A DNA stretch of 64,000 nucleotides from Verrucomicrobiota bacterium. GTDB lineage: Bacteria; Verrucomicrobiota; Verrucomicrobiia; Opitutales; Coraliomargaritaceae. Where the stretch lies: contig JBCBZJ010000001.1 in NCBI GenBank assembly GCA_039815375.1, forward strand, positions 1 through 64,000. The letters are read 5' to 3'. The notes beneath the pieces are model-generated. The model ran no database searches. It had not been told where the DNA came from and saw only the letters and a program-made list of their open reading frames with translations. This document shows, piece by piece, positions 13,400 to 35,812 of this stretch. Position 1 is the first letter of the stretch, and each line of letters starts with the position of its first letter. The translations under genes were made by a program, and so were the position numbers.

Positions 13400-14041
13400 T
13401 TATTCCCCGGTTAACAGGTAGATGACTTCCTCTGCAAGATTCTTGGCGTGATCGCCGATTCGTTCGATCGACTTGGAGATGAGAATCGTCTCCACACGAG
13501 TGGCGGTGCTCGTCTCGTTGCCATTTGCCCCAGCAGCAGATAGGGTATCAAAGTTTGCCTTGTTGATACGGTCGACTTCCTTGTCTCGTCTGATAATAGC
13601 GTGGGCCTTGTCGAGGTCCTCCTCCACTAGTGAAGTGATCGCATCGCTCATCATTTCAAAGGCCAGCAGGCTCATGGCACGGATATCGGCGGTGTGTTCA
13701 ATACGACCATCACGAGTCAGAATGTTCCGGGTTTTCTTGGCAATGCTGTGTGCTTCGTCGCCGGCACGCTCCAGGTCATGGCTTGCCTTGATCGCGACCA
13801 TAATCAGTCGCACATCACTGGATACCGGCGAACGGAGCGTAATATAGCGAACCGACTCGTGGTCGATCTGCATCTCAAGCTCGTCGATGGCGTCGTCCAT
13901 GGCGGCTGCCTTTTGCGTCAACTCCATGTCGCTGTTGAGGAAGCCGTTCACGGCGATGCGCCCTGCCTCGCTGGCTTTTTCGCCGATCAGGATGAGTTTG
14001 CTACGAATACTCTCCAGCTCGCTATGGAAATATCGGTTCAT
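13400..14041 (-). CDS. phoU: phosphate signalling complex protein PhoU
   Basis: Two PhoU repeats ([23 protein letters not shown]), downstream of pstB. Confidence 0.96.
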
Positions 14042-14079
14042 TCGTTTTCTGGTGGGAATGGGTTAATGATGGGGAAGGG

Positions 14080-14865
14080 TCAACCAAAACGTCCGGAAAC
14101 GTAGGCTTCGGTCTGTTGATCGCTTGGATTCATGAAGATATTATCGGTCACGTCGTATTCGATGAGTTTACCAAGGTAGAAAAAAGCAGTGCGGTCCGAG
14201 ACACGAGCGGCTTGCTGCATATTGTGAGTGACGATCACAATGGTGTAGTCCTTCTTCAGCTCATGGATGAGCTCCTCGACTTTTGCGGTCGCGATGGGGT
14301 CAAGTGCGGAGCAGGGCTCGTCCATCAGTAGGATCTTCGGTTTCACCGCCAATGCGCGGGCGATGCAGAGGCGTTGCTGTTGGCCGCCTGACATGCCGAG
14401 TGCACTTTCATTGAGACGGTCTTTGACCTCATCCCAGAGTGCAGCGGAGCGAAGGCAGTCCTCGACGACTTCATCCAGCACCTTTTTGCTCTTCACGCCC
14501 TGGATTCTCAGGCCGTAGGCGATATTCTCATAAATCGATTTAGGGAAAGGATTGGACTTCTGAAAGACCATGCCGACGTGCTTGCGCAGTTCGATGACAT
14601 CGACCGATTCGTCATAGATGTTTACGCCATCGATGTGAATCGAGCCACCTGTAATGCGTGCGATATCGATAAGGTCGTTCATGCGATTGAAGCAGCGCAG
14701 GAAGGTCGATTTGCCACAACCGGATGGGCCGATGAAGGCGGTGACCTCTTTTTCATGGACATCCATGTTTATCTGGTAGAGCGCCTGTGTCGTGCCATAT
14801 GCGAAATCGAAGTTTCGTATCTTAATGACCGTCTTGAGCGGAGGAGAATTTTCTGTGTCGGACAT
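14080..14865 (-). CDS. pstB: phosphate ABC transporter ATPase PstB
   Basis: [45 protein letters not shown]. Confidence 0.99.
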
Positions 14866-14894
14866 GATATGAATTTTTGAAATGGGTGTTTAGC

Positions 14895-16100
14895 CTACCA
14901 GCGATATTTCTTACGCATGCGGACGCGTAGGAGGATGCTGCTCAGGGCAAAGCCACCTACGATAAAAAGGAAAACGAAGGCGGCTCCATACTGCATATCT
15001 CGGGTGTATTCATTCTGAGGGATTTTCGAGCTGACCACGTAAATGTGGTAGGGCAGAGCCATGACTCCCTGGAAGAAGAAGTCGGTCCATTTGTTGAGGC
15101 CCTCCCATGGGAGCTGGTCGCGCAGCGCGAAGGCTGCGGTGAACATGATCGGGGCGGTTTCGCCAGCCACACGGGCGATGCCCATAATGGATGAAGTCAG
15201 GATGCCGGGTAGGGCGTAGGGCAGCACGTTGGTGCGGATCGTCGTCCACTGGGTGGCCCCGAGTGCGAGCGATCCTTCCCGAAAGCCTTTCGGGATCGCT
15301 CGCATGGATTCCTCGCTCGCTGTGATGATCACCGGAAGGGCCATGATCGCTAGAGTGAACCAGCCGGCAAGCATCGACACGCCCCAGCCGAAGAAGAGCA
15401 CGAACATTCCGAAACCGAAGAGCCCGAACACGATCGAAGGCACCCCGGAGAGGTTGAGAATCGATAGGCGAATCATCTGCAGTGTGCGCCCCGGGCGGCT
15501 GTATTCACTCAGGTAGATGGCGCAGAGCACGCCGAGCGTGAGTGCAATGGCAATCGAGCCTGCAACCAGCAGGCAAGTGCCGATGATAGCCGGGCCGATG
15601 CCCCCACCACTGTAGGCGTAATTGCTGTAGACGTAGTCTTCTTTTGAGGGAGTTTCGCTGAGTTCCCTGTATTCGCTATCGCTATAGCGTAGCCGGCCCT
15701 CTTTGCGCTCCTCGTCGAGTGCATCGTAATTTTCATCTAGAGCGGCAATCTGTGCCTTGAGTATGATCTTTTGCTCGGGGTCGCTTTTTCCAAGATCCCT
15801 GAGGTCCCTGCGCAGGCTGAGGCGTTCGCGATTGATGCTCTCCATTTCCTCGTAGACAGCCTTGGGTTCATAGACGTGGAGCGTCTGCGGCTTTTGGGTG
15901 AGGAAGGTGATATTGATGAATGGTGCTTCGGTCGTGAAGACCGCTTTCGAGCCGTTGATCGCAATATTCGCAAAGATATATCCCGCAGCTAATATGACGA
16001 TGTAGGTTGCGAGGCGAAACATCCACTGGATGAGCCCTTCGTAAAAGCGACGCTTCGATGGGCGGCGCGTAAAGGCAGGAGGCTGTGTTTTATTGGGCAT
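14895..16100 (-). CDS. pstA: phosphate ABC transporter permease PstA (with periplasmic insertion)
   Basis: [38 protein letters not shown]. Confidence 0.97.
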
Positions 16101-16110
16101 CGCTCAAATC

Positions 16111-17919
16111 CTAGGGTTTGATCTTGCTGAAACGTCGGACGACCCATTGGGCTCCGTAATTGATAGCCAAAGAGACAAAAAATAGGACGATGCCTACCAT
16201 AAAGAGGGCACGGTAGTGGAGGCTGCCGTGCACTACTTCGCCCATCTCTTGAGCAATGATTCCCGTCATTGTGTGAACCGGTTCGACAAAGACGCCGAGG
16301 CCTTCGGTGAAGTCGGGAATCTTGATGCGATTGCCTGCGCAGAGCAGCACGACCATGGTTTCGCCAATCACCCGGCCGAAGCCCAGCATGATAGCCGAAA
16401 TGATCCCGGATATAGCGGTGGGCACGATGACTCGTATGGTTGTCTGGAGACGGGTCGCTCCCATCGCGAGGGACGCTTCCTTGAAGTGCCGTGGCACGTT
16501 GTTGATTGCGTCTTCGGCCAGCGTGAAAATCGTAGGGATGGCCATGAGCGCGAGCAGGCAGCCTGCGGTAAAGGCGTTCAGGCGCTCTTGAATCGGGAAG
16601 AAGGGCACCCACTCCATGAAGCCCTGCTGCGAAAGTAGGCGGAGTGCCTCACCGAAGACGACGATGCCGAAGAACCCAATCACGACAGACGGAATCGCGG
16701 ATACGAATTCTATGTAAGGCTTGATCAGATTACGCTCGGTTGGGCCGGCGATTTGGTTGACATAAATAGCCGCACCGACGCCGAAAGGAATGGCGAAGAA
16801 TAGGGCGATGCCGGAAATGAGTAGGGAGCCGGATAGCAAGGGGAGGAGGCCATACCAGTCTTGCTGGTCACTGGCAGTTACCCATTCGCGTCCGGTCAGA
16901 AATGAGCCGAGTGCCTGCCAGAAGGAAATCGGCTTGGACTGATCCCAGTTGACCAGTTTTTGCTTATGTTCGGCAAAGCTACCATAGAACATGGTGTTCA
17001 GCTCTCCAAAAGTGTTTATGCGCTTATCAATTGCCGAGCTGTTGAAGTCGATGCCGCCTGCTTTTGCCGATACATCGCGCAGCTTGCCTTCAAGTCGCTG
17101 AAGGATCTGTGCGTATTCGTCCTGTTCATTCGTTATCGTGATGATGCGCTGGGAGAAATCGACCGGCTTGATGCTGGCCTGCACGGAGTCGTATTCATCC
17201 TGAAGTAGGCTGGCGAAGCGCTTGCGGTCTGTTTCGGTCATCTCGCCGCCATTCTGTATTTCGCCTGCTCGCTCCCTGTAGGCGGGTGCTTTGAGATCGC
17301 CGGGGGCGGCGTTGCGGGCGTATTCATTCATGCGCAAGGCGTATTTCGCCCGATCGTCATCACGCATCGTATACTTTGGGTTCGAGACTTCAGCGATACG
17401 GTCGGCGTAATTTGCTAGAGTTTCTCGCAAATTCTCATTTGTGCTGAACTGGTCGCGAATCGCGATGGCTTCCTTCATCTTGCCTTGAACGAAACGGCGC
17501 AATTCCGAGCCGGCGCGCATATAGCCGAGGAAGAAGTCTTTCGGCTGCGGGGCCAAGACCACCTTGTTGATTTCCTGTCTGGTTCGGCCATCTGCCTCGA
17601 GCTCTTTTATCCAATCGGCCTTAACATCGTTCAGATAGCGGGTGAGCTCGGTATAGGCCTCCTGTTTTTCTTTCAGAATATCAACGTATTCGAGTCCGGA
17701 TAGCCGATATTTCTCAAGGCTATTGTGGTATTGCCCGATAAAACCCGCGCCTTCTTTGAAGAGGAAGATTGTGATCAGTCCAAGGATGACGATGGCAACC
17801 ATTGCATTGCTGCCGAAGAAACTCTTGATGATCGAGTCAGAGTCTTTTCCGAATAAAAAAGGCCTGCGCTGACTGAATGCAGGTTTTTGAGATTCGTGCT
17901 GTGGCTGTGTTTCGTCCAT
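16111..17919 (-). CDS. pstC: phosphate ABC transporter permease PstC (large periplasmic helical domain)
   Basis: [31 protein letters not shown], with a ~280-aa soluble insert after TM1. Confidence 0.97.
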
Positions 17920-17976: not shown

Positions 17977-17994
17977 TGTTACGTTTATGTTACA
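17977..17994 (-). promoter_or_regulatory. Pho-box-like direct repeat upstream of pstC
   Basis: TGTTACG-ttta-TGTTACA on + strand (11-bp period), ~60 bp upstream of pstC start. Confidence 0.7.
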
Positions 17995-18072: not shown

Positions 18073-18897
18073 CTAGTAGATCGGCAGGAAGTGCACGCGG
18101 TTGACGATCTCCTGACCTTCCGGGCTCATGCTGAAACCGATAAAATCATTGGCCAGCGGGCTTAGTTTCGCACCGGTGTTGATCAGGTAGTAAAGTGGGC
18201 GAGCAAGGGGATACGCAGGGTCTTCAGGGCTTGCGCCGTCGACCGGAAGCACCTTCACGCCTGGTGTGCCGATATAGGCGAGTCCGACATATCCGATGCC
18301 ATTTGGATTATTCGCGACCTCTGTGGCAATTTGTTCGTTGCCGGCCATTTTCTGTGTATCGGGGCCGTAATCACGTGAAGCCATGCCAAGCTTCTGGAAG
18401 ACGGCATAGGTGCCGGAAGAAGTGTTGCGCGTGTAAGCAGAGATGGCGCCAGTCTCTGTGGAGATGCCAGACCAATCAGTAACGTCACCTGTGAAGATGA
18501 GTTCAACTTCCTCAAGGCTGATGCTTTCAAGCGGGTTGGCTTCATTGACAATGATTGCAATACCGTCTTTCGCCATGGTGAGCTTCTTCATGTCGACGCC
18601 CTTTGCCTTCGCCTTGGCGACTTCCTTCTCCTTAACGTCACGGGATGACATGCCGATTTCTGCTGTGCCGTCGATAACCGAGGCAACGCCTGTGGAGGAG
18701 CCTTCAGCGGCAATTTCGAAGGAGACTTCGACGCCGTGGGCAGCCATCTTAGCCTTAAACTCTTCAGCGAGCTGGGGCACCATCTTGGCGCCGAGTGTGT
18801 CGGAACCCTTGATGACGATGGTTTCATTGGCACTCGCCTGCGCTGCTAAAACGGATAGGGCTGCGATGAGGCTGCGGAGGATGGTTGATCTCTTCAT
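18073..18897 (-). CDS. pstS: phosphate ABC transporter substrate-binding protein PstS
   Basis: Signal peptide from ATG 18897, [34 protein letters not shown]. Confidence 0.96.
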
Positions 18898-19001
18898 GTT
18901 CGTATGGTTTTCTTGATATAATATAGCGCCTGCATCCACATGGGGGTGTCTGCGGGAAGCCTGTAACATAGACCTCTTTTGTGCCAGTTTTATGGCTATA
19001 G

Positions 19002-19019
19002 TGTTACAGCAATGTTAAG
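19002..19019 (-). promoter_or_regulatory. Pho-box-like direct repeat upstream of pstS
   Basis: TGTTACA-gcaa-TGTTAAG (11-bp period), same heptamer pair as at 35795-35812. Confidence 0.7.
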
Positions 19020-19213: not shown

Positions 19214-19293
19214 CGTCACTTCAGCGTAACAATTCACGTTTATGTAACACAAAAGAGACAATGCCGTAACACGCAGGAGATAGTTTTGTTACG
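19214..19293 (+). promoter_or_regulatory. Pho-box-like phased repeat array upstream of phosphate porin
   Basis: CGTCACT/CGTAACA at 19214/19225; TGTAACA, AGAGACA, CGTAACA, GGAGATA, TGTTACG at 19243, 19254, 19265, 19276, 19287 (11-bp steps). Confidence 0.7.
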
Positions 19294-20555: not shown

Positions 20556-20560
20556 GATGG

Positions 20561-20636
20561 GGTAGGGACGGCTGCCCCCAGCCGTCCGGCTCCATGATTG
20601 TGGTTTAGCGGACGCCTGAGGGCAGGCGTCCCTACC
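20561..20636. repeat. GTAG-family REP doublet in inverted orientation (REPIN-like)
   Basis: Left GGTAG-GGACGGCTG-CCCC-CAGCCGTCC-G; right (reverse complement) GGTAG-GGACGCCTG-CCCT-CAGGCGTCC-G; ~20-bp spacer. Confidence 0.8.
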
Positions 20637-20665
20637 ATATCTCATGCATACGATTAGCCTCTACC

Positions 20666-20752
20666 TTAATAAAGCGGCAGGAAATGCGCCTGTTCGATGA
20701 TATGCTGGCCCTGAGGGCTTAGGGTGAAGCCGATGAAGTCGTTCGCGATGGG
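20666..20752 (-). pseudogene. pstS: 3' remnant of a second pstS paralog
   Basis: PIANDFIGFTLSPQGQHIIEQAHFLPLY* matches the C-terminus of the intact PstS ([28 protein letters not shown]) at 18/28 residues by manual alignment. Confidence 0.85.
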
Positions 20753-20753
20753 G

Positions 20754-21023
20754 ATGGATGTGCCCTGGCCGGAGAAACTGCCGATGAGCACAACCTGGGT
20801 CTTCCTAGGACTCCTTGCCGGTCGTGAGGTCGGTATCGCGATCCGTTTGCGCCTGCGCAAGAAAAACAAGGTATCGAATCTGATCTTCCGCGACGCCGGA
20901 AAGGCCTTCTTCGGCTCCGCGATTGCGGTGGTGTTGGCGCTCTTCCTTCCGTTGTTCGTATCGCCCGTAATCAGTGATGCCCCGGATGAAGTTCCGGTGA
21001 TTGAGCAAGCAGTCGGGCCTTAG
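20754..21023 (+). pseudogene. 3' remnant of a membrane transporter, PiT/PHO4-like C-terminal motif
   Basis: LPMSTTWVFLGLLAGRE resembles the PiT C-terminal P(V)STT motif, followed by a TM helix; no 5' part. Confidence 0.6.
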
Positions 21024-21885: not shown

Positions 21886-21923
21886 TGTTACAATGGTAAC
21901 GGAATTGTGACGGCAGGGTTATA
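21886..21923 (+). promoter_or_regulatory. Pho-box-like repeats upstream of TonB-dependent receptor
   Basis: GGTAACG/TGTGACG/GGTTATA at 21895, 21906, 21917 (11-bp steps); TGTTACAATGGT at 21886 is identical to 35795-35806. Confidence 0.6.
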
Positions 21924-22035: not shown

Positions 22036-25000
22036 ATGAAAACAACACTTTTGAAACCACTTTCATTTGCACTTCTCACTGCGCTTTCTGCGGGGCATGC
22101 CTATGCGATTAAGATTACGGTTCCCGAGCAGTATGAGGAGCAAGTTGAGGCTCTGCGTGAAGCGGAGGAAGCGCAGCGCGAACGTGAGCTCAGGGCGTTT
22201 CAGGGCGAAGACTCCGCGACTGAGATGGCCACCGATGCTGAGGTTGATTCTGCGACTGACGGCGGCCTTGTGTTTTCTGTCGTCGATGAGACCGAAGAAG
22301 CTGAAGGAAGCGCACCTGCAGGCGAGGTAGATGCGGATGAATTCCTCGTTCAGTCTTTGGCCGAGGCAACTGCTACGGCTGGCAAATTCGAGAAAGAAGC
22401 GCCTGAAGGGCAGGGCTTCGTTTCCGGCCAGATCGTCGATCAGGAAACGGGGCAGTCCGTGCCCGGTGTTGCCATTTTACTCGAAGACACTGACATCGGC
22501 ACCATTACTGACAGCGAAGGTCGTTACACACTTGGGCCTGCTCCGGCTGACGACTACACGATCAGCTTCATCAAGTCCGGTTACATTGAGGCCAACGTGA
22601 CCGAATTTGCGGTCGCAGCCGGTGAAGTGACCGTTTTCCCGTTTGCGCTACCACCAAGACCGCTCGAAATGTCGGACGAGGTCTATGTGCTGCAGGACTT
22701 CACGGTAACGGCTGATGAAGCAAATCAATTGATGGCTAATCTTGAATTGCGTCAGGATTTTCTTGCGTCAATGGATCTGCTTGGTTCGGAAGATTTTAGT
22801 CGATTTGGTGCGAGTGACGCAGCAGATGCCTTGAAAAGTGTTACCGGTGTTTCGATTTCAGGTGGAAAGTTTGCTGTGGTCCGTGGGCTGGATGACCGCT
22901 TTTCGACAACTTCTCTCAATGGAATTGTGATTCCAAGTCCAGACCCGGATCGTCTTGCCGTTCCATTGGATATATTTCCATCGGGCCTCCTTCAATCGGT
23001 GGTGACCCAGAAAAGTTTTACTGCAGATCAGCCAGGTGAATCTTCTGGTGGCGCGATCAATCTTATCACCAAGTCCCATCCGGAAGAGTTTACTGCAAAA
23101 ATTTCGTTTGGAGTGGCCTCAAATGAGAATGCAACGGGCGAAAGCAACTTCTTGTTCGCTGATGAGCAGAGATTTCAGCCATCACCATTCCGGTTCGCAC
23201 CCAGAAACAAAAAGCCTGGCTTGGATACCAGCTTTTCAAGTGAAATCGGTGGTTCGTTTAATGTTGGAGATCTGGAGATTGGGCTTGTTGGTGGTGCGTC
23301 TTACAGCGAAAAGTATTCGCATGCCGAAGTTGAGCGTAATCGTCTGGAGGATGATGGCGGTGATGCTTCCGTTTCTTCTTCAAGTATACAAACCTTGAGC
23401 GGTTACGAAGAGCAGCTCTCGGGGCTATTTGGTGCAAGCCTGCGCCTAAACGATGTAACCACATTGAGCTATACAGTTCTTTATGCCGGAAAAAACGAAG
23501 CTGAGGGCGCCTTCTCTACGATTGAAACTGAATCTTCGGAGCCGGTTTTCGAAACCTCCGCTAGCACGGTCGAACGTGAGTATTGGAATCAGCAGCTTGT
23601 TCTTGATCATGAATTTAACAGCATACTTGGCTTCGAAGATGTTGGTTTGAAGCTTTCATTTGCTGACTCGACAAATACACAGGATGAACCAGATATCCGG
23701 TTTTCAGATACGCTTGAGACTGGTGATGCCCCGGATTCATTTGATTCAACGGATTTCGGGCAGCCTGTTCGTTATGAGCGCCTACTCGAGCAAGAAGACC
23801 GGATTTTTAAAATCGACGTCGAAGTTCCGTATGAATTCAGGTCGGAAGAAGCCTCTGTGAAGTTTGGATTTTCGAATGAGGATACTTCCCGGGAAGTTTC
23901 TCAGCGAGAGTTTCTTGGGGCTCAATTTGATGATGCAACACTCGATGGAATGGGTGGATCGAATCCTGACGTCATTATAATTCCTGATGTTCTGGAGTTT
24001 CCTGGGGAGCCGCATTTCACAGAGATACCCGGGACCACTGTTATTGATGCAGGTGTTGCGGAAGGCACTCGAGAAATTCGCTCGGTCTATTTTCAGTCAA
24101 CGTTTTCGCCGATACAAAAAATCGAGGTGACAGCAGGCGTGCGCATGGAGGATAGTTTCATTGAGGCGGTTGCCGCTGAGCCGGGGCGGCTTACGAGTTT
24201 CGTATTCGAACCAGTTGTCGAGAGCTCTCCGATTGATGAGCAATCGGTATTGCCAACAGTCAACTTTACTTACGATATCGCCGAAGACCTCCAAATTCGC
24301 TTTGGCTGGTCCCAAACAGTTGCGAAGCCGTCGTTTCGCGAGTTGAATCCGAATCCTACTTTTAATCCGGCAACGGGTGATGCGGAGATCGGTAATCCCG
24401 GTACCGTCTTTCAGAATGAAGGCACTACGGATACAGTTCTGCCTTCTGATTTCAGTGGTCTCGAATTGGTTGATGTGACCAATTTTGATTTCAGAGTTGA
24501 GTGGTTCTTTACTGAAGAAGATTTGGTTTCCTTTTCGCTCTTTCACAAGAAGGTTGATGGCCCCATTGAGCGCATTCGGGTTCTCACTGGAGGAGGTTCT
24601 TCTTTTACTTTCTTTAACAATGACAACGAAGCGGAAGTTACAGGAGCTGAATTTGAGGTTCGATATTCTTTGGGCAATTTCAGCGATTTCCTCCAAAATC
24701 TATACATTGGAGGTAACTATACCTATATCGATGCGACGGTTGAACGCTCTACTTTAGAAACAGATATTTTGCCTGCTTCCGCGTCTCGCGAGCGCCAGTT
24801 GTTCAATCAACCCGAGAATATCATGAATGCTTTCGTGAATTACCGAAACGAAGGCTTGGGTCTGGATGCCACTCTTTCTGCAAACCAGGTTGGGCAGCAG
24901 CTGTCCGGTGTGACGTCTGCAGGTGACATCTTTATCGATCCTCACTTGACACTTAACTTTATCGTCAGCTGGAAAGTTACCGAGAATTTTTCCGTGAAGT

Positions 25001-25195: not shown

Positions 25196-25235
25196 TGTTA
25201 CGTGAACGTAACCCTGAGGTCTGAGATTCGTTACA
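25196..25235 (+). promoter_or_regulatory. Pho-box-like repeats between TBDR and secreted protein gene
   Basis: TGTTACG, CGTAACC, CGTTACA at 25196, 25207, 25229 (in 11-bp phase). Confidence 0.6.
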
Positions 25236-25295: not shown

Positions 25296-27065
25296 ATGAA
25301 AAAAGCATTCACACTAATTTCCCTCTGTGCTGCAACAGCATCGCTCGCGAGCGCTGCTGTCGTCCGCATCGAGGCCGGCGTCAGCCTTCCTGGTTCACCA
25401 ACCGTATCTGTTAATGGTCTGGGCAATCTCGTCATTGATGGTGACGCGACGCTCAATAGTTCAGATCAGTATATTCTCACCGAGATTACTTACGTAACAA
25501 ATGGCACCCTTACCATCCCCGCCGGCACGATTATTCGTGGCGAGCAGACTACCGGGGCGAACAACGATCCTGGCGCTCTTGTGATCACCCGCTCTGCGCA
25601 GATCGATGCTCAAGGCACTGCGGCCAATCCTGTCATTTTCACTACCGCTGCACTGGATACGAATAGCAACGGCTTGGCCGACCGAGTCGGTGGTAATGAC
25701 GCCATTACTTCGGCAGACTTTGTTGAGTTCGGCGGTGGAAATGATGAAAATGATTTCCTCGATGTTGACCCTTTGAATAGCCCGCTTGGGCCATACTTTG
25801 GTTGGGATACTGCGGATCGTTACACTTCGCCTCTTGCTGTGTTAGAGTATCGTGGCATGTGGGGTGGGTTGATCATCTGTGGCAACGCTCCAACAAGTAT
25901 CTCTGAAATTAATGGTGGGATTCTCACTGCTTCCTCCCTTGCTGACGGCGTCTCTGCTCCATCTCAGATCGATGACCCGTTTGAAGGTTTCATTGAAGGC
26001 ATTGCTCCTGGTGTATCCGGTGAACTTGGTGTTTACGGCGGTCGTAATCCTCACGACTCCTCCGGTAGTCTCCGTTTCGTTTCGATCCGTCACGGTGGTT
26101 CCGACATTGGTGATGGTAATGAGATCAACGGTCTCACAATGGGTGCAGTAGGTGCCGGAACACGTATCGAATTTGTCGAAGTCTACTGCAACGCAGACGA
26201 TGGTTTCGAATGGTTTGGTGGGACAGTTAACTGTAAGAACCTTGTAGCCGCCTACAACAATGACGATTCATTCGACATTGATGAGGGTTTCTCCGGCCTG
26301 GGGCAGTTCCTTTTCTCCCTTACGCTTGACGATAATACAAACGGCAACCACGCAGCTGAGCATGACGGTGTCGATGCTCTCTTTGAGTCAGTAGGTGTAG
26401 AAGGTCTCGATAGTGAAGGTGATAATGGGGGCGGCGTCTACCTTACCCATACCACCATCTACAACGCGACATACATTGGCGCAGGCGCACTGCAGTCAGA
26501 TGCACCGGATTCCGGTGAGAATACAGCATTCCGCATTCGTGACTCATGGGGCGGCGGTTACTTTAACTCGATCTTCACAGACTTCGGTGGCTATGCGCTC
26601 CGTTTTGACAGCGATGCTGCTTCCCGTTACGACGCTGGCGACATCTCCTTCCGTAGTAACATGTTCTACAACTTTGCCAAGGATGGTGGGGTAGAATTCG
26701 ATGCGACGCCAACTGCTCTTGAGCTCGGTCGCAATGAGACACGTGGCGAAGGTGCACTTGATAACTCGGGCACTAATGCAACAAACGCGGCTAACTTCGC
26801 GAACAACACGATCGACGTCGATCCATTCGCTTTCCGTCGCGTTGGTTTTATTGGATTCGCAGATCCTAAATTTGATATTCGCAGCGGCCTTGACCCGCGT
26901 CCAGACCCATCGGTTGGTGCAGTAACTGCCAATACCGAACCTGAGCTCGCGACGTTCTTCGAAAATGTTTCCTACAAAGGGGCTTTCGATCCTACCGCAA
27001 CGTCTCTCTGGACTGACACCTGGACAGCTGTTGGTGCGCTTGGGATCCTCGAGACTCAACTCTAA
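25296..27065 (+). CDS. secreted acidic beta-helix-like protein of a TBDR-associated family (possibly ElpS-like)
   Basis: SPI signal peptide; TLTIPAGT, GTAANPVIFT, WGGLIICGNAP, DSSGSLRFVSIRHGG, NEINGLTMGAVG.GT, DDGFEWFGGTVN, YKGAF motifs. Confidence 0.8.
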   Translation: MKKAFTLISLCAATASLASAAVVRIEAGVSLPGSPTVSVNGLGNLVIDGDATLNSSDQYILTEITYVTNGTLTIPAGTIIRGEQTTGANNDPGALVITRSAQIDAQGTAANPVIFTTAALDTNSNGLADRVGGNDAITSADFVEFGGGNDENDFLDVDPLNSPLGPYFGWDTADRYTSPLAVLEYRGMWGGLIICGNAPTSISEINGGILTASSLADGVSAPSQIDDPFEGFIEGIAPGVSGELGVYGGRNPHDSSGSLRFVSIRHGGSDIGDGNEINGLTMGAVGAGTRIEFVEVYCNADDGFEWFGGTVNCKNLVAAYNNDDSFDIDEGFSGLGQFLFSLTLDDNTNGNHAAEHDGVDALFESVGVEGLDSEGDNGGGVYLTHTTIYNATYIGAGALQSDAPDSGENTAFRIRDSWGGGYFNSIFTDFGGYALRFDSDAASRYDAGDISFRSNMFYNFAKDGGVEFDATPTALELGRNETRGEGALDNSGTNATNAANFANNTIDVDPFAFRRVGFIGFADPKFDIRSGLDPRPDPSVGAVTANTEPELATFFENVSYKGAFDPTATSLWTDTWTAVGALGILETQL

Positions 27066-27123: not shown

Positions 27124-27858
27124 ATGAAAAATATATTGATTGCTACTGCGGTATTTTCATTAGCCGCATCTCTCGGAGCCCAGACTTTTATCGCGGGTTT
27201 TGACTTCACAAACACTTCAGGTACCGCAGACGTAGGAGTTTATGCTGCAGATGTCGCTGGCTCCCAGGCTGGTGTTTCTTTGAATGCATCCGCTTTTATT
27301 CAGAGCTCTAGTGCGGTTCCTTTTCCCAATGCAGGCGTTACCCTTGAAACCCGTCAAGTTGGTTTCGACACGGTTGGTAACGCGCCCGCCTTGTCTGACT
27401 TTGACGGCCAGAACGGTTTCAGTAGCGACCCGTTCGGTCTGTTTTTTCAAGGAGCTATCGACGGACTCTCGTTCTCAATCGACATCGACACATCAGGCTT
27501 CAATAGCATTCTTTTTGCTTACGATAGCTTTAGTGACGATAATGCAGTTCAGACTGGTGGCGAATGGTTCACTTCGTTCGATGGTGCCGGCGATGTTTCT
27601 CTAGATACTGTTCTCTTCGGTGCATCGTACACTGACGAGGTTTTCAACATTGATGTTACTGGAGTCGATTCTCTCACGCTAACATTTGCATTTGACTCAC
27701 TTGAAGCGGATACGTTCGGAACTGATGTTACTGGCCAGCGTGTGCATTTTGATAATTTTGCTATCGGTGGCACACCGGTTCCAGAGCCAAGTGCGTACAC
27801 AGCGATTCTTGGCCTCGTTGCGATTGGTTTTGTTGCGCAGCGTCGCCGGCGCAAGTAA
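27124..27858 (+). CDS. PEP-CTERM sorting domain surface protein
   Basis: Signal peptide and C-terminal VPEPSAYTAILGLVAIGFVAQRRRRK. Confidence 0.95.
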   Translation: MKNILIATAVFSLAASLGAQTFIAGFDFTNTSGTADVGVYAADVAGSQAGVSLNASAFIQSSSAVPFPNAGVTLETRQVGFDTVGNAPALSDFDGQNGFSSDPFGLFFQGAIDGLSFSIDIDTSGFNSILFAYDSFSDDNAVQTGGEWFTSFDGAGDVSLDTVLFGASYTDEVFNIDVTGVDSLTLTFAFDSLEADTFGTDVTGQRVHFDNFAIGGTPVPEPSAYTAILGLVAIGFVAQRRRRK

Positions 27859-28696: not shown

Positions 28697-29455
28697 CTAT
28701 TGTTCCAGTGTGAAATATTCTTCGTAGATTCCTACACCGACTTTGATCCATTCTGTAGTTACCCTGGATATCCCCGTTTCGGGTGAATGAATTGTCATGT
28801 TTGAGGCGACATATACGCCTTCTTGACGTTCGTAATCGCTATAGGTTGTAACGGTAGTCCCTTGGTCCGGGCATTCTTGTTCGATTCGAGCCAGGCGATA
28901 GTCTTCGCTGTTTAGTCCGAATATATAGCTTGTTCTGCTATCTTCGCGGGTGGCTCGAATCCTTATCAAAGATATTCTGTCGATCATCTTGCTCTCAATT
29001 TTTTCTAGTTTCGCTCCTTGCCTCTGGGCTTTGATGAGTCGTGGGAGGACGCCCGCATCAGCGAGGAGTTCAGCGGCCGCTTTCGAGGAGAGTTCTTCTT
29101 TCCGCATTTCCTGCGCACCAGCCAGGCGTGTTGCTGTCCAGGCGGTTTTGCCGTCATGGGCTTGTATCACCTGAAGTTTTTCGTCTTCTTTTCCTGGTAT
29201 TGGCAAAGTCATCGTGGCGCGAATTTGGTTGGGGCGCTTTTTGACGATGACAATGTCGACGAGTTGTCCGTCGCGTTCGATGGTGCCATTGAGTTGAATA
29301 CTCTCTATCTGGCTCCAGTTGCGCATGCCGCCCATGGCTTCCCAGTGCTTATTCAGGATTTCCCGAAGTGCTGGATCGCCGGTGGCGTTCGCACCCGAAG
29401 TAAAAATGAAGGTGGCGAGTGAGAGTGTGACAATGATGCGACCCAACCGATACAT
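28697..29455 (-). CDS. exported LolA-like / outer-membrane lipoprotein-sorting-type protein
   Basis: Signal peptide, ILNKHWEAMGG, KKRPNQIR, HDGKTAW, TTYSDY pattern typical of LolA-fold families. Confidence 0.65.
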   Translation of the reverse strand: MYRLGRIIVTLSLATFIFTSGANATGDPALREILNKHWEAMGGMRNWSQIESIQLNGTIERDGQLVDIVIVKKRPNQIRATMTLPIPGKEDEKLQVIQAHDGKTAWTATRLAGAQEMRKEELSSKAAAELLADAGVLPRLIKAQRQGAKLEKIESKMIDRISLIRIRATREDSRTSYIFGLNSEDYRLARIEQECPDQGTTVTTYSDYERQEGVYVASNMTIHSPETGISRVTTEWIKVGVGIYEEYFTLEQ

Positions 29456-29627
29456 AGAGGAATAGTATACCTCTTAGTGGGTGTTCTGTCACGGAACAGC
29501 TTGGTGACATCGGTGAAGCTTTTGTGACGTGTGTTTCCGTTGTGTGCCAGTTGCCAAGGCTGTCTTTTGGTCGCTCATTTGAAACTTATGGATGCCGTTA
29601 AAGGAGGCGAATATCGCTCATCGAGAA

Positions 29628-29668: not shown

Positions 29669-29908
29669 ATGAGAACGACTATTACTATTCAGGATTCTCT
29701 TTTGGAACGTGCAAAGGAGGAAGCTCTACGGAAAAAGTGTAAGCTTAGTGATGTGGTCAATGATGCCCTGAGGTATCGTTTGGCAGAGTCTTCTGGGGCG
29801 GTTGTTGAGGAGGCACCTTTGCTGACGTATGGGAGCGGTGGTTTAAGGCCCGGGGTGGATTTGGCGGACAGCGGTTCGCTTCAGGATATTATGAATGAAC
29901 CAAGATGA
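29669..29908 (+). CDS. vapB: type II TA antitoxin, RHH/CopG VapB
   Basis: MRTTITIQDSLL..AK..A......LSDVVNDALR and GGLRPGVDL motif; 4-bp overlap with toxin. Confidence 0.9.
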   Translation: MRTTITIQDSLLERAKEEALRKKCKLSDVVNDALRYRLAESSGAVVEEAPLLTYGSGGLRPGVDLADSGSLQDIMNEPR

Positions 29909-30342
29909 ATTTGTTGGATGTTAACATCCTGGTTGAAGCGCATCGAATCGACGCGCCTAAGCACGAAGCCATTGCCTCATGGTTAGCAAACGTTTTGCGT
30001 GAGCCCTCGGGAGTCGTCGTATCCGACTTAGTTTTGAGTGGATTTTTGTGCGTTGTGACGCACCCGCGTGTATTTAGGGAGCCCACTCCTCTTGATAAGG
30101 CACTTGATTTCGTTGCCGATTTCCGCACGCGCCCCTCTGTTCGCTTAGCAGTTCCAGGCTCACGGCATTGGACGATCTTTACGGATTTACTCACTCGTTA
30201 TGAGGCGAAGGGAAACCGCATCCCTGATGTGTATCACGCAGCTCTGGCGCTTGAATATGGATACTATTGGGTGAGTTTAGATCGTGGATTCAGTCGATAC
30301 TCTGAGCTGCGCTGGGTGCACCCCTTGGACTCGTTGTGCTGA
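29905..30342 (+). CDS. vapC: type II TA toxin, VapC PIN domain (mycobacterial-type subfamily)
   Basis: LLDVNILVEAHR, GFLCVVTHPRVF, GNRIPDVYHAALALE, SLDRGFSRY. Confidence 0.93.
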   Translation: MNLLDVNILVEAHRIDAPKHEAIASWLANVLREPSGVVVSDLVLSGFLCVVTHPRVFREPTPLDKALDFVADFRTRPSVRLAVPGSRHWTIFTDLLTRYEAKGNRIPDVYHAALALEYGYYWVSLDRGFSRYSELRWVHPLDSLC

Positions 30343-30384: not shown

Positions 30385-31752
30385 CTACCCTTGCGAACGG
30401 GCAGCTCGTTCGACCCGGTCAGTATAATCGGCGAGATTGCGGTCTGACTTGAGCTGAAGGGCGCGGCGGAGGAGCGGGACGGCTTTTTTGTATTCTCCAT
30501 TGCGGACAAGTGCCTGCCCATGGGCAACAAGTGCTTCGTGTTCGAAAGCCTCGATCTTCTCCGCTTGTTCGTAGCGGTTGGTTGCTTTAGCCATTTCGCC
30601 TGAGTCTGCATAATAATTGGCCAATTCAATGATGGCATCGCCGTTTAGTGCATCGCGCTCGATGATCTTGACCAGAAGTTCGGCCGCCCTCTCATCTTCT
30701 CCCATAGATCGGGCGATTTTTGCCTCGAGTGTAAGCAGTGTGAGGTCGTTTTTATCGGTCAGTCCGTTCCCGAGCTGCGATCGGGATTTCGCGATCATTG
30801 CCGCAGCTTGCTTGTAGTTTGCTGTGCGGGTGAGTAGTTCGGCAGCGCGGATGAGTGATTGGCTATCTTCAGCGGTAGCCATATCGGCTGCAGTGAGGTA
30901 GGCTTCCAAGGCCAAGTCCGGTGCCTCGTTATTCATGTAAATGTCTCCCAGAAGAGTAAGCGTAGTGAGGTCGGCTCTACCCATGCGGCGGACGATTTCC
31001 AGATTCTTCGCTGCAGCGAGGGAGTCATCTTTACCGAGGTAAGCATTACCCTGTAAGAGCCAATAGTCGCTGTTGTCCGGATCGTCTTTGATCAGAGTGT
31101 CAAACAGTGCAACGGCATCAGCATAGCGTTCGGTCCGGAGAAGGCATTGCGCGAGGCCGACCTTCCAGTCCTTGTTATCCGGCTGCATCAGGATGGCTTG
31201 GCGGTAGGCGGCTTCGGCAGGGTAGTAGCGCTCTTTAGTTAAGTAGCCATAGCCGAGTAGACCGTAGGCGCGACCGTCAACTTCACCGAGTTCCATAGCT
31301 TTTGAGATCGCCGTGATGGACTTAGCGTAGTCCCCCTTTTGTACCTGCACAAGGCCGAGGTTCTTGTAAGCGCGACGGAAGTCCGGGTGCTTAACCACAG
31401 CGTTGTTGTAATATTGCTCTGCCTTGGGGAGATTGCCTTCCTGAAAGTAAAGATTTGCGAGGATGAAGTCGAAGGCGGCGCTACTGTCACTTGTGATTTG
31501 CGGCTCAAGTTGTTGGATTGCGGCTTTCGGGCTGGCTTTGATCAGGTCGATTAGTCCGCGAAGGGCTTCTTTTTCTTCGTCAGAGATCGGTGGCTCATAG
31601 CCTGCAAGGAAGCCGTAGCTGCCGAGGAATTCCTTCACAAATGTTTCATCCTCCCATAGCTGGCTGGCGATGTTGGTGACTTGAACCGACTGGCCGACAA
31701 GTGACGCAGCACTGATTCCGGTAATGGCGAGGGTGGAGATGAGCTTTTTCAT
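30385..31752 (-). CDS. periplasmic TPR protein of TonB2-type system (TtpD-like)
   Basis: Signal peptide, multiple TPR repeats, last gene of the tonB operon. Confidence 0.88.
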
Positions 31753-31779
31753 AAGCAAATTGGGTAAGTGTTATCGAAA

Positions 31780-32436
31780 TTAATTGTATGGGATACTGGC
31801 GCGCATGCGCACCTTGACAGCCTGCCCGCCCTTTGTTGCGGGTTCAAAACGGGCCCGACGAAGTACATCCATCGTGGCATCGGAAAGGATACGATCAGGA
31901 GAATCGACGATCTTTACATCCTCAACTCGCCCGTTCTCGCTGACAATATATTCGACTCGGACAACCCCGGTAATGCCTTTACGCCTTGCTGCAGCCGGGT
32001 AGCTGAATTCGATGCGGGTGCGTGGCTTCGGCGGTGAGTCCACATCGCCAAGCTCGAAAATTTCTAAACCACCCAGATCGGTGCCGGCGACGTCGAAAGT
32101 TGGGAGAGCAAAGTCTCCGCCAAGTGCGCCACCGGTTCCCGGATTGAGGGCCATATCGAGCTGTTCCAGCGATATGGGGGGCGGAGGTGTATTTAGCTCG
32201 GGCGGTGGTTCCTCTTCTTCAGGTGGGGGTGGTTCAGGGGGATCCTCGGGTGGTGGCGGAGGTGGTGGCGGTGCTACATTAAGGGCCTCGATTTGTTCCG
32301 GCTCTTTTTGAAAATCGGTAAAGATCTGTGTCAGCGGAATGATGAGGAAAAGTGCACCACTCAAGCCGATGCCGATCACGGTCCCTGAGGCGCGCATGCC
32401 GACTCGGTGTTGCGGTGGACTGTAGATCTTTGCCAT
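31780..32436 (-). CDS. tonB: energy transducer TonB
   Basis: TM anchor, poly-Pro linker, TonB_C YPAAARRKGITGVV.VEYIV..NGRV...FEPA. Confidence 0.95.
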   Translation of the reverse strand: MAKIYSPPQHRVGMRASGTVIGIGLSGALFLIIPLTQIFTDFQKEPEQIEALNVAPPPPPPPPEDPPEPPPPEEEEPPPELNTPPPPISLEQLDMALNPGTGGALGGDFALPTFDVAGTDLGGLEIFELGDVDSPPKPRTRIEFSYPAAARRKGITGVVRVEYIVSENGRVEDVKIVDSPDRILSDATMDVLRRARFEPATKGGQAVKVRMRASIPYN

Positions 32437-33501: not shown

Positions 33502-33526
33502 GACTGATATTCAAAATGGAGCTTTG

Positions 33527-34927
33527 TTAACTGCGAGAGCCCATCACGCCGTTGATAAAGCCGACTGCGATCTGCTCAAGGTCGCCGACTTTTTGACGGG
33601 CCATGCGCGAAATCAGGCCATGAGCAATTAGCGAAGGAATCGCGACGATCAGGCCGAGTTCTGTCGTGACAAGTGCTTGGGAAATACCATCAGCGAGGTT
33701 ACTCGCGTCACCGGTTCCGAAAACGGTGATGAGCTTGAAAGTGTTGATCATCCCGGTGACGGTTCCAAGCAGTCCAAGAAGTGGAGCTGCCGCTGCGGTC
33801 AAGGCCATGAAAGGCAGGAAGCGCTCGAGCTTTGGCCGGGCAACCAGAATCTTCTCATAGAGAATTTCTTCCAGTGTGCCACGCTTCTCACATGCATGTT
33901 CCACGCCTTTGCGTAGCAAGTCGCCACCTGCGCCGCCGATTTCGGAAGCCAAAGCTTGAGCCTTGGCGAGATCGTTGGCTTCAACCTGTTCCAGAACGCC
34001 CTGAATTTGAGCGGAAGATGGTGTTTTGAAGGCCACCACTTCTATGATTTTGAATAGACCGATCAGCAGACAAACTGCACCGAGACCAATAATGATGTAG
34101 CCCCAGAGCCCACCTTGGGCAATGTGTTCCATGGTGGTATCTTTGCTCTCTTCGATCTTAAGTGCTTTGCCAAGTGTTGGATCGGTCGGAATGACGCCGT
34201 CTTTGTTCGAGATGAACTCGCGAATCATACCGGTTGCACTGCCATCTAATACGGCAATCGCCGCTTCTGCTGCATTGAGCTTATTAAATGTGATGCCGGC
34301 AGCCTCGGACTGCGAGGAGGAGAAATAAACTGCGGGGCCGTATGCGGCAAAAGTGCCTTCTTCGATCATGCCGTTGGGCGTGAGGGCCTGACCTTCAAAA
34401 GTGTAGCCGCCGACAAGTTCTTCGAGGCGACCAATGGCAACACCGATCACATCAATCTGTTTGTCGAAGCGTTCGGCCTGTGTCAGGTTCGGATCGTCAA
34501 GCGCGAGGCGTGCTTCTTCTGCTGCAGAAGCGTAGAGTTGAACCTCACTAAAATCGATTCGGGTTTCGAAAGAGCGGACGAATTCATCGAGGAGTCCGGC
34601 AGCATACTCGTTTTGTGCTTTAATGGCTTCGACCTGTTCGCGGAGCCGGTTCAGGCCGAGGTCGCTGTTGTCGCGGAGGCGTCGGAGGCGGTCCAGCTCG
34701 GAAGACTTTTGGCGCACCTTATTTTCTAGAGAGGATACTTCACGGATGAGCGGTATCTTGTCCTTAGCGATGCTCTCGCGGGTGGCGTTGAGCTCATCAA
34801 GAGCAGCTTGCAGGTCCTTGTCGGCTTGAGCGCTTGCGGATTGAAAGCTTTGTGCCTGGGCGGACGTCAGAGGCAAAGCAAGAGCTGTTAGCGTCGCGAC
34901 GAGAATGGTTTTGAGAGAAGCTTGCAT
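33527..34927 (-). CDS. large ExbB-family protein with periplasmic coiled-coil domain (TtpC-like)
   Basis: Signal peptide, coiled coil, PTDPTLG, C-terminal [26 protein letters not shown]. Confidence 0.9.
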
Positions 34928-34950
34928 GGTTCGTGGCTAAATCGGAGGTT

Positions 34951-35712
34951 TTACTTGATGCTTGCTGGAACGTTGACGAACTCAATGTCCTCGGTGCCCT
35001 CGTAGACCTCGATCAGACGTTTGATTTCGGCACTGGAGTCTTGCATGCGGGGCCATTCCCAGCCATCCGGAGTCGGGTGGCCCATACCCGCGTATTCGCC
35101 GGAAGCATCGACGTAGTAGGCGGCAGCAAGACCGAGGTAGATCGTGCGCACTTCGACGACTTTGCCGCCTTCAATTTCGCGCGATTCACTGGTTTGTGTG
35201 ATCGTGGTATTAAACTTATCGGTCTGGCTGAGGATACCGACGATGTTCTGCACGCGCTCACCCAGCGAGAGGGATGTATTTTCAGGGTCCTCCGGTAGCC
35301 GGCGAATGAGGGGCTTGATGGTATCAACCAGAGGCTCAGGCAGCGTTTTAACGATAGCCTTCATCTGGGTCTCGAGCCCGCCGATATTGGCTTCGACAAC
35401 AGTAGAGGCTGCAGTCAGCGCGTCTTTTTCTGCTGTAAGCTTAGCGCGGTCTTCGTCGGCTGCGGTGGCCGATGCTTCGAGTTCTTTGAGTGCAGTGTCC
35501 AGCCGTTGCGTTTCGCTTGTTAGCAAGTTGACCGTATCGGTGAGGATGGACTGTTCGAGCTGCCAGTTCGTGTTTTCTTCAGAAATGATCTGGCGTGTCT
35601 CCACCCATTCTTCGAGGACACTACGCGTATCGCCTACTTTATCTGCTGCGTGGAGTGCGCCGGTAGTGGCTAGAGTAGCCGCTGAAAGGGCCATAAGAAA
35701 TCTGTTCTTCAT
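34951..35712 (-). CDS. DUF3450-family periplasmic coiled-coil protein (TtpB-like)
   Basis: Signal peptide, coiled coil, SLGERVQ, VRTIYLG.AAAYY motifs; first gene of the tonB operon. Confidence 0.82.
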   Translation of the reverse strand: MKNRFLMALSAATLATTGALHAADKVGDTRSVLEEWVETRQIISEENTNWQLEQSILTDTVNLLTSETQRLDTALKELEASATAADEDRAKLTAEKDALTAASTVVEANIGGLETQMKAIVKTLPEPLVDTIKPLIRRLPEDPENTSLSLGERVQNIVGILSQTDKFNTTITQTSESREIEGGKVVEVRTIYLGLAAAYYVDASGEYAGMGHPTPDGWEWPRMQDSSAEIKRLIEVYEGTEDIEFVNVPASIK

Positions 35713-35772
35713 AATCAAATTTAAGGAGTGGCGAGCGTTATCAGAAAGGGTGTGTCGATGAAAGCGCGCGTC

Positions 35773-35812
35773 TGTTAAGCTTAGGTGTCTGTAATGTTAC
35801 AATGGTGTTAAG
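35773..35812 (-). promoter_or_regulatory. Pho-box-like array upstream of TonB2-type operon
   Basis: TGTTAAG (35773), TGTTACA (35795), TGTTAAG (35806) in 11-bp phase. Confidence 0.72.

What the first reader, a model, noticed from the sequence alone, without database searches (positions are those of the whole stretch)
13400..35812. ~22-kb putative phosphate-starvation island: Pst + porin + TBDR/secreted protein/PEP-CTERM + dedicated TonB2-type motor
Seen: pstSCAB-phoU, an OprO/P porin, a TBDR, a secreted beta-helix protein, a PEP-CTERM protein, a LolA-like protein and a DUF3450-TtpC-ExbB-ExbD-TonB-TPR operon are contiguous, and the same phased heptamer sits in front of most transcription units. 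Established: PhoB-type regulators bind 11-bp-phased direct repeats, and Ttp/TonB2 operons are known from Vibrio-type systems, mostly for iron uptake. Inference: this is a complete outer-membrane-to-cytoplasm machine for capturing a polymeric or organic P source (nucleic acid, phytate, polyP or mineral P), with its own P-regulated energiser. I know of no description of such a system in Verrucomicrobia.
Basis: partly seen in the sequence, partly recalled or inferred. Interest (0 to 1): 0.85.

Follow-up and report, generated by a model that had tools for sequence, protein, structure and literature searches.

The report
Phosphate-switched TonB motor and receptor cluster
This bacterium keeps its phosphate-pump genes next to an outer-membrane receptor, an exported partner protein and one of its three six-gene receptor power units, and a shared DNA switch suggests that most of them are likely turned on by phosphate starvation, probably to import organic phosphorus of a still unknown kind.

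Summary
The genes are as described, though two toxin-antitoxin pairs and a permease remnant interrupt them. The heptamer is real. A motif learned only from relatives' pstS promoters (TGTAACA, 11-bp phase) ranks pstC, pstS, oprP, the LolA-like gene, the DUF3450 motor operon, ppk1 and a phoB-like gene in the top 1% of this genome's promoters. It marks 14 of 29 orthologous motor promoters and 0 of 18 paralogous ones. The receptor's boxes lie on the opposite strand, and the PEP-CTERM gene has none. The receptor/beta-helix pair resembles the known phosphate-induced ElpS/Fjoh_0546/BT4056 pair, but lacks the lipid anchor. The full 22-kb layout recurs in only 2 of 21 relatives; the receptor, beta-helix gene and motor are linked in 7 of 21. 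The same trio recurs in Alteromonas (beside phoBR), Pseudoalteromonas and Fibrobacterota. The genome's other two motors sit in purine and iron-type clusters. Verdict: a Pho-regulon outer-membrane uptake module with a likely phosphate-specialised Ttp motor. The substrate is unknown, no hydrolase is encoded in the cluster, and nothing was shown by expression.

The parts
13400..14041 (-). phoU
   Evidence: TIGR02135 168.5 bits over cut-off 130
14080..14865 (-). pstB
   Evidence: TIGR00972 over cut-off
14895..16100 (-). pstA
   Evidence: TIGR00974 over cut-off
16111..17919 (-). pstC (602 aa, long extra N-terminal region)
   Evidence: TIGR02138 over cut-off
17977..17994 (-). Pho-type dyad before pstC, best-scoring in the genome (18.7)
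18073..18897 (-). pstS (likely start 18897)
   Evidence: PBP_like_2, TIGR02136 191 bits, cut-off 207
18980..19019 (-). four 11-bp-phased heptamers before pstS
19214..19271 (+). phased heptamers before oprP; densest GTWAC cluster of the genome
19327..20490 (+). OprO/P phosphate porin
   Evidence: PF07396 E 7e-20
20724..21023 (+). 3' remnant of a ~360-aa membrane permease that is whole in relatives
   Evidence: 76% identity to residues 278-347 of L149:3333-4448; no other match in the genome
21029..21651 (-). VapBC-type toxin-antitoxin pair (insertion)
   Evidence: PIN domain; antitoxin-like 79-aa ORF
21886..21912 (-). two strong heptamers on the strand opposite to the receptor gene, just before a TATAAT
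22036..25182 (+). TonB-dependent receptor of the ElpS-partner type (likely ATG 22036; ORF open from 21937)
   Evidence: PF00593, PF07715, PF13715; best plasmid hits are receptors next to ElpS-like genes
25196..25235 (.). three heptamer cores at 11/22-bp spacing, mixed orientation, before the beta-helix gene
25296..27065 (+). exported acidic beta-helix protein, ElpS/Fjoh_0546/BT4056-like, no lipobox
27124..27858 (+). PEP-CTERM protein, no box of its own
   Evidence: PF07589
27926..28660 (+). orphan 244-aa ORF in the variable slot
   Evidence: no Pfam match; no clear relative
28697..29455 (-). LolA/TP_0789-like exported protein
   Evidence: Atlas TM 0.77-0.80; near the beta-helix gene in 9 of 21 relatives
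29532..29549 (-). Pho-type dyad before the LolA-like gene (13.0)
29669..30342 (+). second VapBC-type pair (insertion)
   Evidence: TIGR00028 over cut-off
30385..31758 (-). TPR protein (TtpD-like)
31780..32436 (-). TonB
   Evidence: PF03544
32482..32880 (-). ExbD
   Evidence: PF02472
32917..33501 (-). ExbB
   Evidence: PF01618
33527..34927 (-). TtpC-like long ExbB
   Evidence: PF01618 at residues 336-451 of 466
34951..35718 (-). DUF3450 protein (TtpB-like)
   Evidence: PF11932 E 1e-37
35735..35763 (-). conserved core-promoter-like element TTTCAT-17-TAACGC of the motor operon
   Evidence: 13 of 32 motor promoters of this clade, 0 of 18 paralogues
35773..35812 (-). 11-bp-phased Pho-type boxes before the motor operon (12.8-12.9; 99.6th percentile)

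Best explanation
The cluster holds the Pst pump, an OprP porin, a TonB-dependent receptor with an ElpS-like beta-helix partner and a six-gene Ttp-type TonB motor, most behind 11-bp-phased boxes that likely bind PhoB, so the motor likely powers the receptor to import scarce dissolved organic phosphorus when phosphate runs out. Shown: the genes, the boxes and their conservation, and the recurring linkage. Inferred steps: (1) a PhoB/PhoR-like pair on contig C59, which has a box before its own genes, activates pstS, pstCAB-phoU, oprP, the LolA-like gene, the motor operon and probably the beta-helix gene. (2) Free phosphate enters by OprP and Pst. (3) The beta-helix protein would act at the surface as a binding lid; its conserved Asp/Glu ladder would need a cation such as Ca2+ to hold a phosphorylated solute. 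(4) The motor would open the receptor and pull the solute into the periplasm. (5) The Tat-exported PhoA would release phosphate, Pst would import it and Ppk1 would store it. I favour a small soluble phosphoester (nucleotide or sugar-phosphate size) over a polymer, phytate or mineral.
For: Motif found de novo in 23 relatives' pstS promoters. Scored over 3000 promoters of this genome, it puts pstC, the phoB-like gene, oprP, pstS, the LolA-like gene, DUF3450 and ppk1 above the 99th percentile. The ppk1 box lies in the region shared with the only phoA. Motor orthologues pass in 14 of 29, paralogues in 0 of 18; the signal peaks at spacing 11 (10.4 vs 3.4-7.5 at other spacings). It is on the sense strand only (16 of 32 vs 0 of 32), and the orthologue beats the paralogue of the same genome in 12 of 13. 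The receptor is adjacent to the beta-helix gene in 20 of 21 relatives and 68 of 75 wider loci; pst genes lie near in 32 of 75. A six-gene motor lies beside the pair in 7 of 21 relatives, in Pseudoalteromonas, in Alteromonas with phoB-phoR-pstS, and, by DUF3450 and TtpC/ExbB matches, in three Fibrobacterota loci. Literature: Caulobacter CCNA_00169/00170 are in the direct PhoB regulon; F. johnsoniae Fjoh_0545/0546 are induced by low Pi.
Against: No expression or binding data for this organism. At the receptor promoter the boxes are on the opposite strand (9 of 11 vs 3 of 11 sense), so induction, repression or service to a divergent gene are all open; one Caulobacter paper called the receptor constitutive, data not shown. 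Fifteen of 29 orthologous motor promoters miss the mark. The motor is on another contig than the receptor in at least 6 relatives with long contigs (G018, G020, G028, G029, G036, G057). It keeps the box in genomes where the beta-helix gene was not found (G003, G005, G006, G032, G033; four are under 90% complete). The PhoB and PhoR candidates score below curated cut-offs (241 vs 296, 271 vs 334). The protein is strongly acidic (80 D+E vs 25 K+R), which does not by itself suit a polyanion. No substrate-defining enzyme is linked. Kin are not independent, so the p of 3e-4 overstates.
Confidence: 0.6

Rival explanations
1. The motor is the lineage's general-purpose TonB motor. PhoB merely raises its level in starvation, and it serves many of the genome's receptors, not mainly the neighbour.
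For: Orthologues occur in most genomes of the family and are the only DUF3450 match in several small genomes. The genome has 14 receptor barrels over cut-off but 3 such motors. Caulobacter exbBD were listed as direct PhoB targets yet not regulated in a later data set.
Against: No other receptor promoter in the genome reaches the box threshold. Paralogous motors sit in purine and FecIR-type clusters with other promoter marks. Distant motor clades are found beside the same receptor pair in two more phyla.
Confidence: 0.25
2. The beta-helix protein is a Ca-dependent lyase or hydrolase, or a mineral-binding protein, that frees phosphate or phosphorylated oligomers from polymers or particles. The receptor takes up the products.
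For: Fold matches polysaccharide lyases, epimerases and tailspikes (Z 18.9-14, rmsd 3-4 A). Invariant D301, D302, E305, D323, D324, D327, D329, E330, E355, H356, D357. In FCB-group relatives the domain carries a T9SS tail.
Against: Identity to all solved folds is at most 15%, with no sequence hit. Purified ElpS had no phosphatase activity. Gammaproteobacterial homologues are 2-3 tandem repeats, which suits avid binding.
Confidence: 0.2
3. The repeat is read by another OmpR-type regulator (for example a nitrogen regulator, as GTNAC repeats are in Actinobacteria, from recall), or the clustering is chance.
For: Seven OmpR-type DNA-binding domains in the genome; glnD lies 4 kb away.
Against: Top hits are pst, oprP, ppk1/phoA and the phoB-like gene. 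The purine-linked motor has a sigma-54-spaced site instead (5 of 6 vs 22 of 3055 background). The orthologous regulator pair lies two genes upstream of the receptor in L144 and L146.
Confidence: 0.07

Closest known systems
ElpS/CCNA_00170 of Caulobacter crescentus (PMC2996285; PMC11208175), Fjoh_0546/Fjoh_0545 of Flavobacterium johnsoniae (PMC8115612), BT4056/BT4055 putative lid pair (10.1101/2023.03.17.533168)
   Same: Receptor plus pectin-lyase-fold partner side by side, tied to phosphate starvation, substrate unknown; F. johnsoniae also has oprP and phoBR in the cluster.
   Different: Here the partner has no lipobox (0 of 53 aligned rows), there is no T2SS next to it, and a PEP-CTERM gene, a LolA-like gene and a six-gene motor are attached. 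The passages seen name Bacteroidota and Proteobacteria, not Verrucomicrobiota.
Vibrio TonB2/TonB3 systems, TtpB-TtpC-ExbB-ExbD-TonB-TtpD (PMC6957404)
   Same: Same six-gene order, with a long TtpC and a closing TPR protein.
   Different: TonB2 is Fur/iron-regulated for siderophores and TonB3 has no known iron role; here the promoter carries Pho-type boxes and the neighbour is a phosphate-linked receptor.
Pseudomonas aeruginosa exbB2-exbD2-tonB4 (PMC7035377)
   Same: A separate TonB system expressed in the phosphate-starvation response.
   Different: Three genes, controlled through sigma-VreI and described as uncharacterised; no TtpB/C/D and no ElpS-type pair were seen in the passages read.
PusCD systems of Flavobacterium (PMC8115612)
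   Same: Low-Pi-induced TonB-dependent uptake proposed for organic P.
   Different: PusCD are SusC/SusD pairs with linked phosphodiesterases; this receptor scores far under the SusC model (36 vs 368 bits), and no SusD or hydrolase is in the cluster.

Membership tests
Ttp-type (TonB2/TonB3-like) motor | six genes in the order TtpB, TtpC, ExbB, ExbD, TonB, TtpD(TPR) | tested here: met
   DUF3450 = TtpB rests on position and recall (the paper holds the term twice, passage not shown)
Vibrio TonB2 system proper | Fur/iron-controlled promoter | tested here: inconclusive
   Pho-type boxes found; the candidate iron palindrome is absent from this promoter; the canonical Fur box was not scanned
Vibrio TonB2 system proper | needed for siderophore uptake | not testable with these tools
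   needs mutants
ElpS/Fjoh_0546/BT4056 family | sequence homology to the named members | tested here: inconclusive
   No named ElpS sequence could be fetched. Homologues (HMM E 4.5e-45 and 2e-86) sit in the elpS-receptor-T2SS layout in Sphingomonas and Indioceanicola, the layout described
ElpS/Fjoh_0546/BT4056 family | pectin-lyase-like beta-helix fold | tested here: met
   AF2 pLDDT 90, best Z 18.9, rmsd 3.1 over 267 residues; PF28492 Beta_helix_4
ElpS/Fjoh_0546/BT4056 family | encoded next to its cognate TonB-dependent receptor | tested here: met
   20 of 21 relatives, 68 of 75 wider loci; receptor best hits are the neighbours of the homologues
ElpS/Fjoh_0546/BT4056 family | lipoprotein with N-terminal lipobox | tested here: not met
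   0 of 53 rows of A1; the proteobacterial and Bacteroidota homologues show an N-terminal Cys motif. Hence filed as ElpS-like, not as ElpS
ElpS/Fjoh_0546/BT4056 family | induced by phosphate starvation | not testable with these tools
   box above the mark in 9 of 15 promoters, not in this genome's
Pho regulon | direct repeats at 11-bp phase before the genes | tested here: met
Pho regulon | same box before canonical members and the regulator itself | tested here: met
   pstC, pstS, oprP, ppk1/phoA region, phoB-like gene
Pho regulon | PhoB/PhoR present | tested here: inconclusive
   best model is PhoB but under cut-off; best genome hit of Alteromonas PhoB
Pho regulon | PhoB binding and induction shown | not testable with these tools
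   needs ChIP/EMSA and RNA-seq
PusCD (SusCD-like) systems | SusC receptor with SusD lipoprotein | tested here: not met
   TIGR04056 36 bits vs 368; no SusD family hit among cluster proteins
horizontally acquired genomic island | deviant composition, mobility genes, variable presence at a fixed site | tested here: not met
   GC as genome; no integrase among ORFs scanned; ftsK-side flank shared with G002 and G019, rluA-side with G003, G005, G023

The most novel reading that the evidence does not exclude
Six-gene Ttp motors are nutrient-class power units. Opitutales keep separate phosphate, purine-nitrogen and iron copies, each under its own regulator, and the phosphate copy is the obligate energiser of the widespread ElpS-type receptor. 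That receptor has been paired with a Ttp motor separately in Verrucomicrobiota, Alteromonadales and Fibrobacterota, as a main route for dissolved organic phosphorus.
Probability: 0.35. Interest if true: 0.8.

Novelty: new variant of a known kind. Interest (0 to 1): 0.6.

Why it matters
The ElpS-type receptor pair is reported in 621 genera and is among the most strongly phosphate-induced genes in Caulobacter and Flavobacterium, yet its substrate is unknown. Tying it to a defined, Pho-boxed motor gives a clean knockout target and a cultured model (Alteromonas, Pseudoalteromonas). It also offers a non-iron role for Ttp-type motors, which are known for siderophore uptake; the Alteromonas copy was earlier read as iron/vitamin-related (PMC6972757). 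It gives a first Pho-box model for this Verrucomicrobiota family, usable to map its phosphate regulon.

Tried and rejected
Complex prediction of receptor residues 346-1048 with beta-helix residues 186-480: no verdict, score 0.00, both chains cut and the plug removed. RNA runs: none was listed. Earlier scan notes: nothing shown by place, words or sequence. PDB sequence search: no hit for the beta-helix protein, only a weak FecA plug hit for the receptor; Foldseek gave nothing at E<=0.001. Genome-wide spacing spectrum of GTWAC pairs shows no excess at 11, as expected for a small regulon. The sigma-70 and terminator scan was at chance level (10 vs 15.5; 27 vs 22.7). Phytate as substrate is disfavoured: PF02333 not found (other phytase types not searched). 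PhoX and GDPD not found (genome 99.9% complete). DNA as substrate is not supported: five EEP-family genes and the PhoD-like gene lack the box, and a secreted 5'-nucleotidase scores 8-9, under the mark; other nuclease families were not searched. The ORF at 35816-36148 is spurious, overlapping RNase P RNA. PF28492 is not in the searchable library, so the named control genomes could not be queried for it. Supplements of PMC8115612 could not be read and those of the bioRxiv preprint are closed; they may hold the FI/FII/ElpS alignment, ExbBD expression values and genus lists that bear on novelty.


Full report
1. What is there. The stretch holds phoU-pstB-pstA-pstC and pstS (minus), an OprO/P porin, a TonB-dependent receptor, a 589-aa exported protein, a PEP-CTERM protein and an orphan ORF (plus), then a LolA-like gene and TPR-tonB-exbD-exbB-ttpC-DUF3450 (minus). 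The closest named record is a Coraliomargarita sp. MAG with 86% identity in the 589-aa protein (L140). Composition is ordinary and flanks are shared with some relatives, so this is a native cluster.

2. The motif. GTWAC occurs 17 times in 2072 bp of island intergenic DNA against 2.5 expected (chosen after looking). To avoid circularity I learned a motif from 23 pstS promoters of relatives only. It came out as TGTAACA-N4-xGCCACA-N4-YGTAACA, an 11-bp phase. One outlier site (G029) was dropped before building the heptamer model. Over 3000 crudely called promoters of this genome (99th percentile 11.7) it scores pstC 18.7, a phoB-like gene on C59 16.5, oprP 15.0, pstS 14.0, the LolA-like gene 13.2, DUF3450 12.9 and ppk1 12.7. 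By definition about 30 genes pass, most unrelated. The ppk1 box lies in the region shared with the genome's only PhoA, a Tat protein. The C59 pair best fits PhoB/PhoR but under the cut-offs; its orthologue lies two genes upstream of the receptor in L144 and L146. I read the motif as this lineage's Pho box; its likeness to the E. coli box is from recall.

3. The motor promoter. The genome has three DUF3450-TtpC operons. Among relatives, 14 of 29 orthologous promoters (>=50% identity) pass the mark against 0 of 18 paralogous ones, made up of 16 of the 42 lower-identity hits plus this genome's two. The signal peaks at spacing 11, is on the sense strand only (16 of 32 vs 0 of 32), favours the orthologue in 12 of 13 within-genome pairs, and occurs in 9 of 16 genera. 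Thirteen of 32 promoters also share a TTTCAT...TTTCTGCT core just downstream, absent from 18 paralogues. Fifteen of 29 miss the mark, mostly small genomes, and kin are not independent.

4. Where the motif does not fit. The receptor promoter has its boxes on the opposite strand (9 of 11 vs 3 of 11), abutting a conserved -10-like element. The beta-helix promoter passes in 9 of 15 cases but not here (6.6). PEP-CTERM (0 of 5), the permease remnant (0 of 9), the orphan and phoU have none.

5. Three motors, three settings. A quick maximum-likelihood tree of TtpC (careful search unfinished; one spurious row included; long branches flagged) splits the Opitutales copies into this clade (31 rows, 93), a second (6 rows, 100) and a third (10 rows, 100). 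The second lies among purine-catabolic genes in 5 of 6 loci and has a sigma-54-spaced site in 5 of 6, against 22 of 3055 promoters. The third follows a FecI-FecR-receptor set in this genome, but such genes were not seen in the other fetched stretches, and a TTGAGAC-N3-GTCTCAA-like palindrome marks only 4 of 11 promoters; its iron label is weak.

6. Linkage. The beta-helix gene was found in 21 of 60 relatives. Within up to 20 kb each side: receptor 20, LolA-like 9, PEP-CTERM 8, six-gene motor 7, pstC 4, oprP 3, motor plus pstC 2; six of the 21 stretches are under 20 kb. In single- or two-contig genomes G014 and G047, pst is hundreds of kb away. In the best 75 of 257 confirmed loci across GTDB, many close kin, the receptor is near in 68, pst genes in 32 and some motor gene in 12. 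Recurring neighbours include ppk1, a Na/Pi cotransporter and PhoU, but no hydrolase among the 23 clusters scanned of 42 that recur. Pseudoalteromonas replicons carry DUF3450-motor, homologue, receptor; the Alteromonas macleodii BGP9 plasmid carries phoB, phoR, pstS-like, homologue, receptor, motor. Their promoters show CTGTCAT-type dyads with one mismatch in 3 of 3 homologue and 2 of 3 motor promoters, with no shuffle control. DUF3450 and TtpC/ExbB genes also lie beside the beta-helix gene in three Fibrobacterota loci. These motors fall outside the Opitutales clades on long branches, so separate recruitment is possible but untested.

7. The beta-helix protein. It is predicted as a parallel beta-helix (pLDDT 90; best Z 18.9, rmsd 3.1) with 6972 representatives at E<=0.001, an invariant acidic ladder and no lipobox. 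Homologues in Sphingomonas and Indioceanicola sit before a receptor and a T2SS operon, the layout given for elpS. I could not align ElpS itself, so this link is indirect. How it stays at the surface without a lipid anchor is unexplained; the LolA-like and PEP-CTERM neighbours are candidates by position only.

8. Literature seen. PMC2996285: abstract, first part of the text and passages. PMC8115612: passages with Table 1; supplements unreadable. Preprint 2023.03.17.533168: passages. PMC11208175: passages and supplement rows; CCNA_00169 and 00170 rise from hundreds or a few thousand reads to over 100,000 in a pstS mutant and are marked direct PhoB targets, while exbB/exbD are listed from an earlier regulon but not regulated in that data; equating CCNA_00169 with ElpS is my inference. 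PMC6957404, PMC7035377, PMC6972757, PMC12872454: passages. Ten full-text searches listed no paper linking a DUF3450/TtpC motor to phosphate or describing this cluster in Verrucomicrobiota; the library lacks most subscription papers.

9. Verdict. The parts are known kinds: Pst, OprP, an ElpS-like receptor pair, a Ttp motor. What appears new is the Pho-boxed six-gene motor, its repeated pairing with this receptor and the nutrient-sorted paralogues. Phosphate control of the motor operon is well supported by sequence (about 0.8). That it powers this receptor for organic-P uptake is about 0.6; strict dedication is about 0.35. The substrate is unresolved. New variant of a known kind; interest 0.6.

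Noticed in passing
window 36029-36406 +: RNase P RNA class A; the 110-aa ORF at 35816-36148 that overlaps it is spurious.
   Followed up: yes
window 170-3350 +, 62574-62645 +: 23S and 5S rRNA genes and a tRNA.
   Followed up: no
window 20556-20641: 33-nt inverted repeat of REP-like shape between the oprP terminator and the permease remnant; may mark the event that removed the permease's 5' part.
   Followed up: partly
L149:3333-4448, L146:8196-9269; window 20724-21023: A ~360-aa membrane protein with no Pfam match, repeatedly found beside pst or the receptor in this family; candidate phosphate permease, broken in this genome.
   Followed up: partly
window 12743-13243 -: Lys/Ala-rich histone-H1-like protein whose C-terminal ~85 aa are conserved right after phoU in most relatives.
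   Followed up: no
G000 C27:211-23318 (L226): Second six-gene Ttp motor inside a purine-catabolism cluster (adenine deaminase, NUP, NCS2 permease, xanthine dehydrogenase) with a sigma-54-spaced site and no receptor in the stretch listed.
   Followed up: partly
G000 C31:51030-69285 (L227); C62:91977, 213002: Third motor behind a FecI-FecR-receptor set; a TTGAGAC-N3-GTCTCAA-like palindrome occurs five times in this cluster and before two genes on C62; candidate iron-regulator box.
   Followed up: partly
L149:12729-14861, L151:13588-15750, L153:13680-14828: O-antigen-ligase (Wzy_C) proteins follow the PEP-CTERM genes in the variable slot of some relatives; possible glycosylation of the surface proteins.
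   Followed up: no
G002, G018, G023 (L059, L135, L077): A second pstS, in G002 and G023 divergent from the receptor gene; could explain the inverted boxes there, but they persist where no divergent gene exists.
   Followed up: partly
L217:9115-13215, L219:12216-16286, L221:10177-12972: Gammaproteobacterial homologues of the beta-helix protein are lipoprotein-type with two or three tandem copies of the domain.
   Followed up: partly
G031 C18 and C4 (L084, L088): Two copies of the phosphate-clade motor, both without the box, in a genome where the beta-helix gene was not found.
   Followed up: no
window 56843-61142 +: Polysaccharide export genes: beta-barrel porin, Poly_export, Wzz-like and tyrosine-kinase-like ORFs.
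   Followed up: no
G000 C11:248878-252639 +: 1253-aa exported 5'-nucleotidase-domain protein with a sub-threshold box (8-9); candidate partner if the substrate is a nucleotide.
   Followed up: partly
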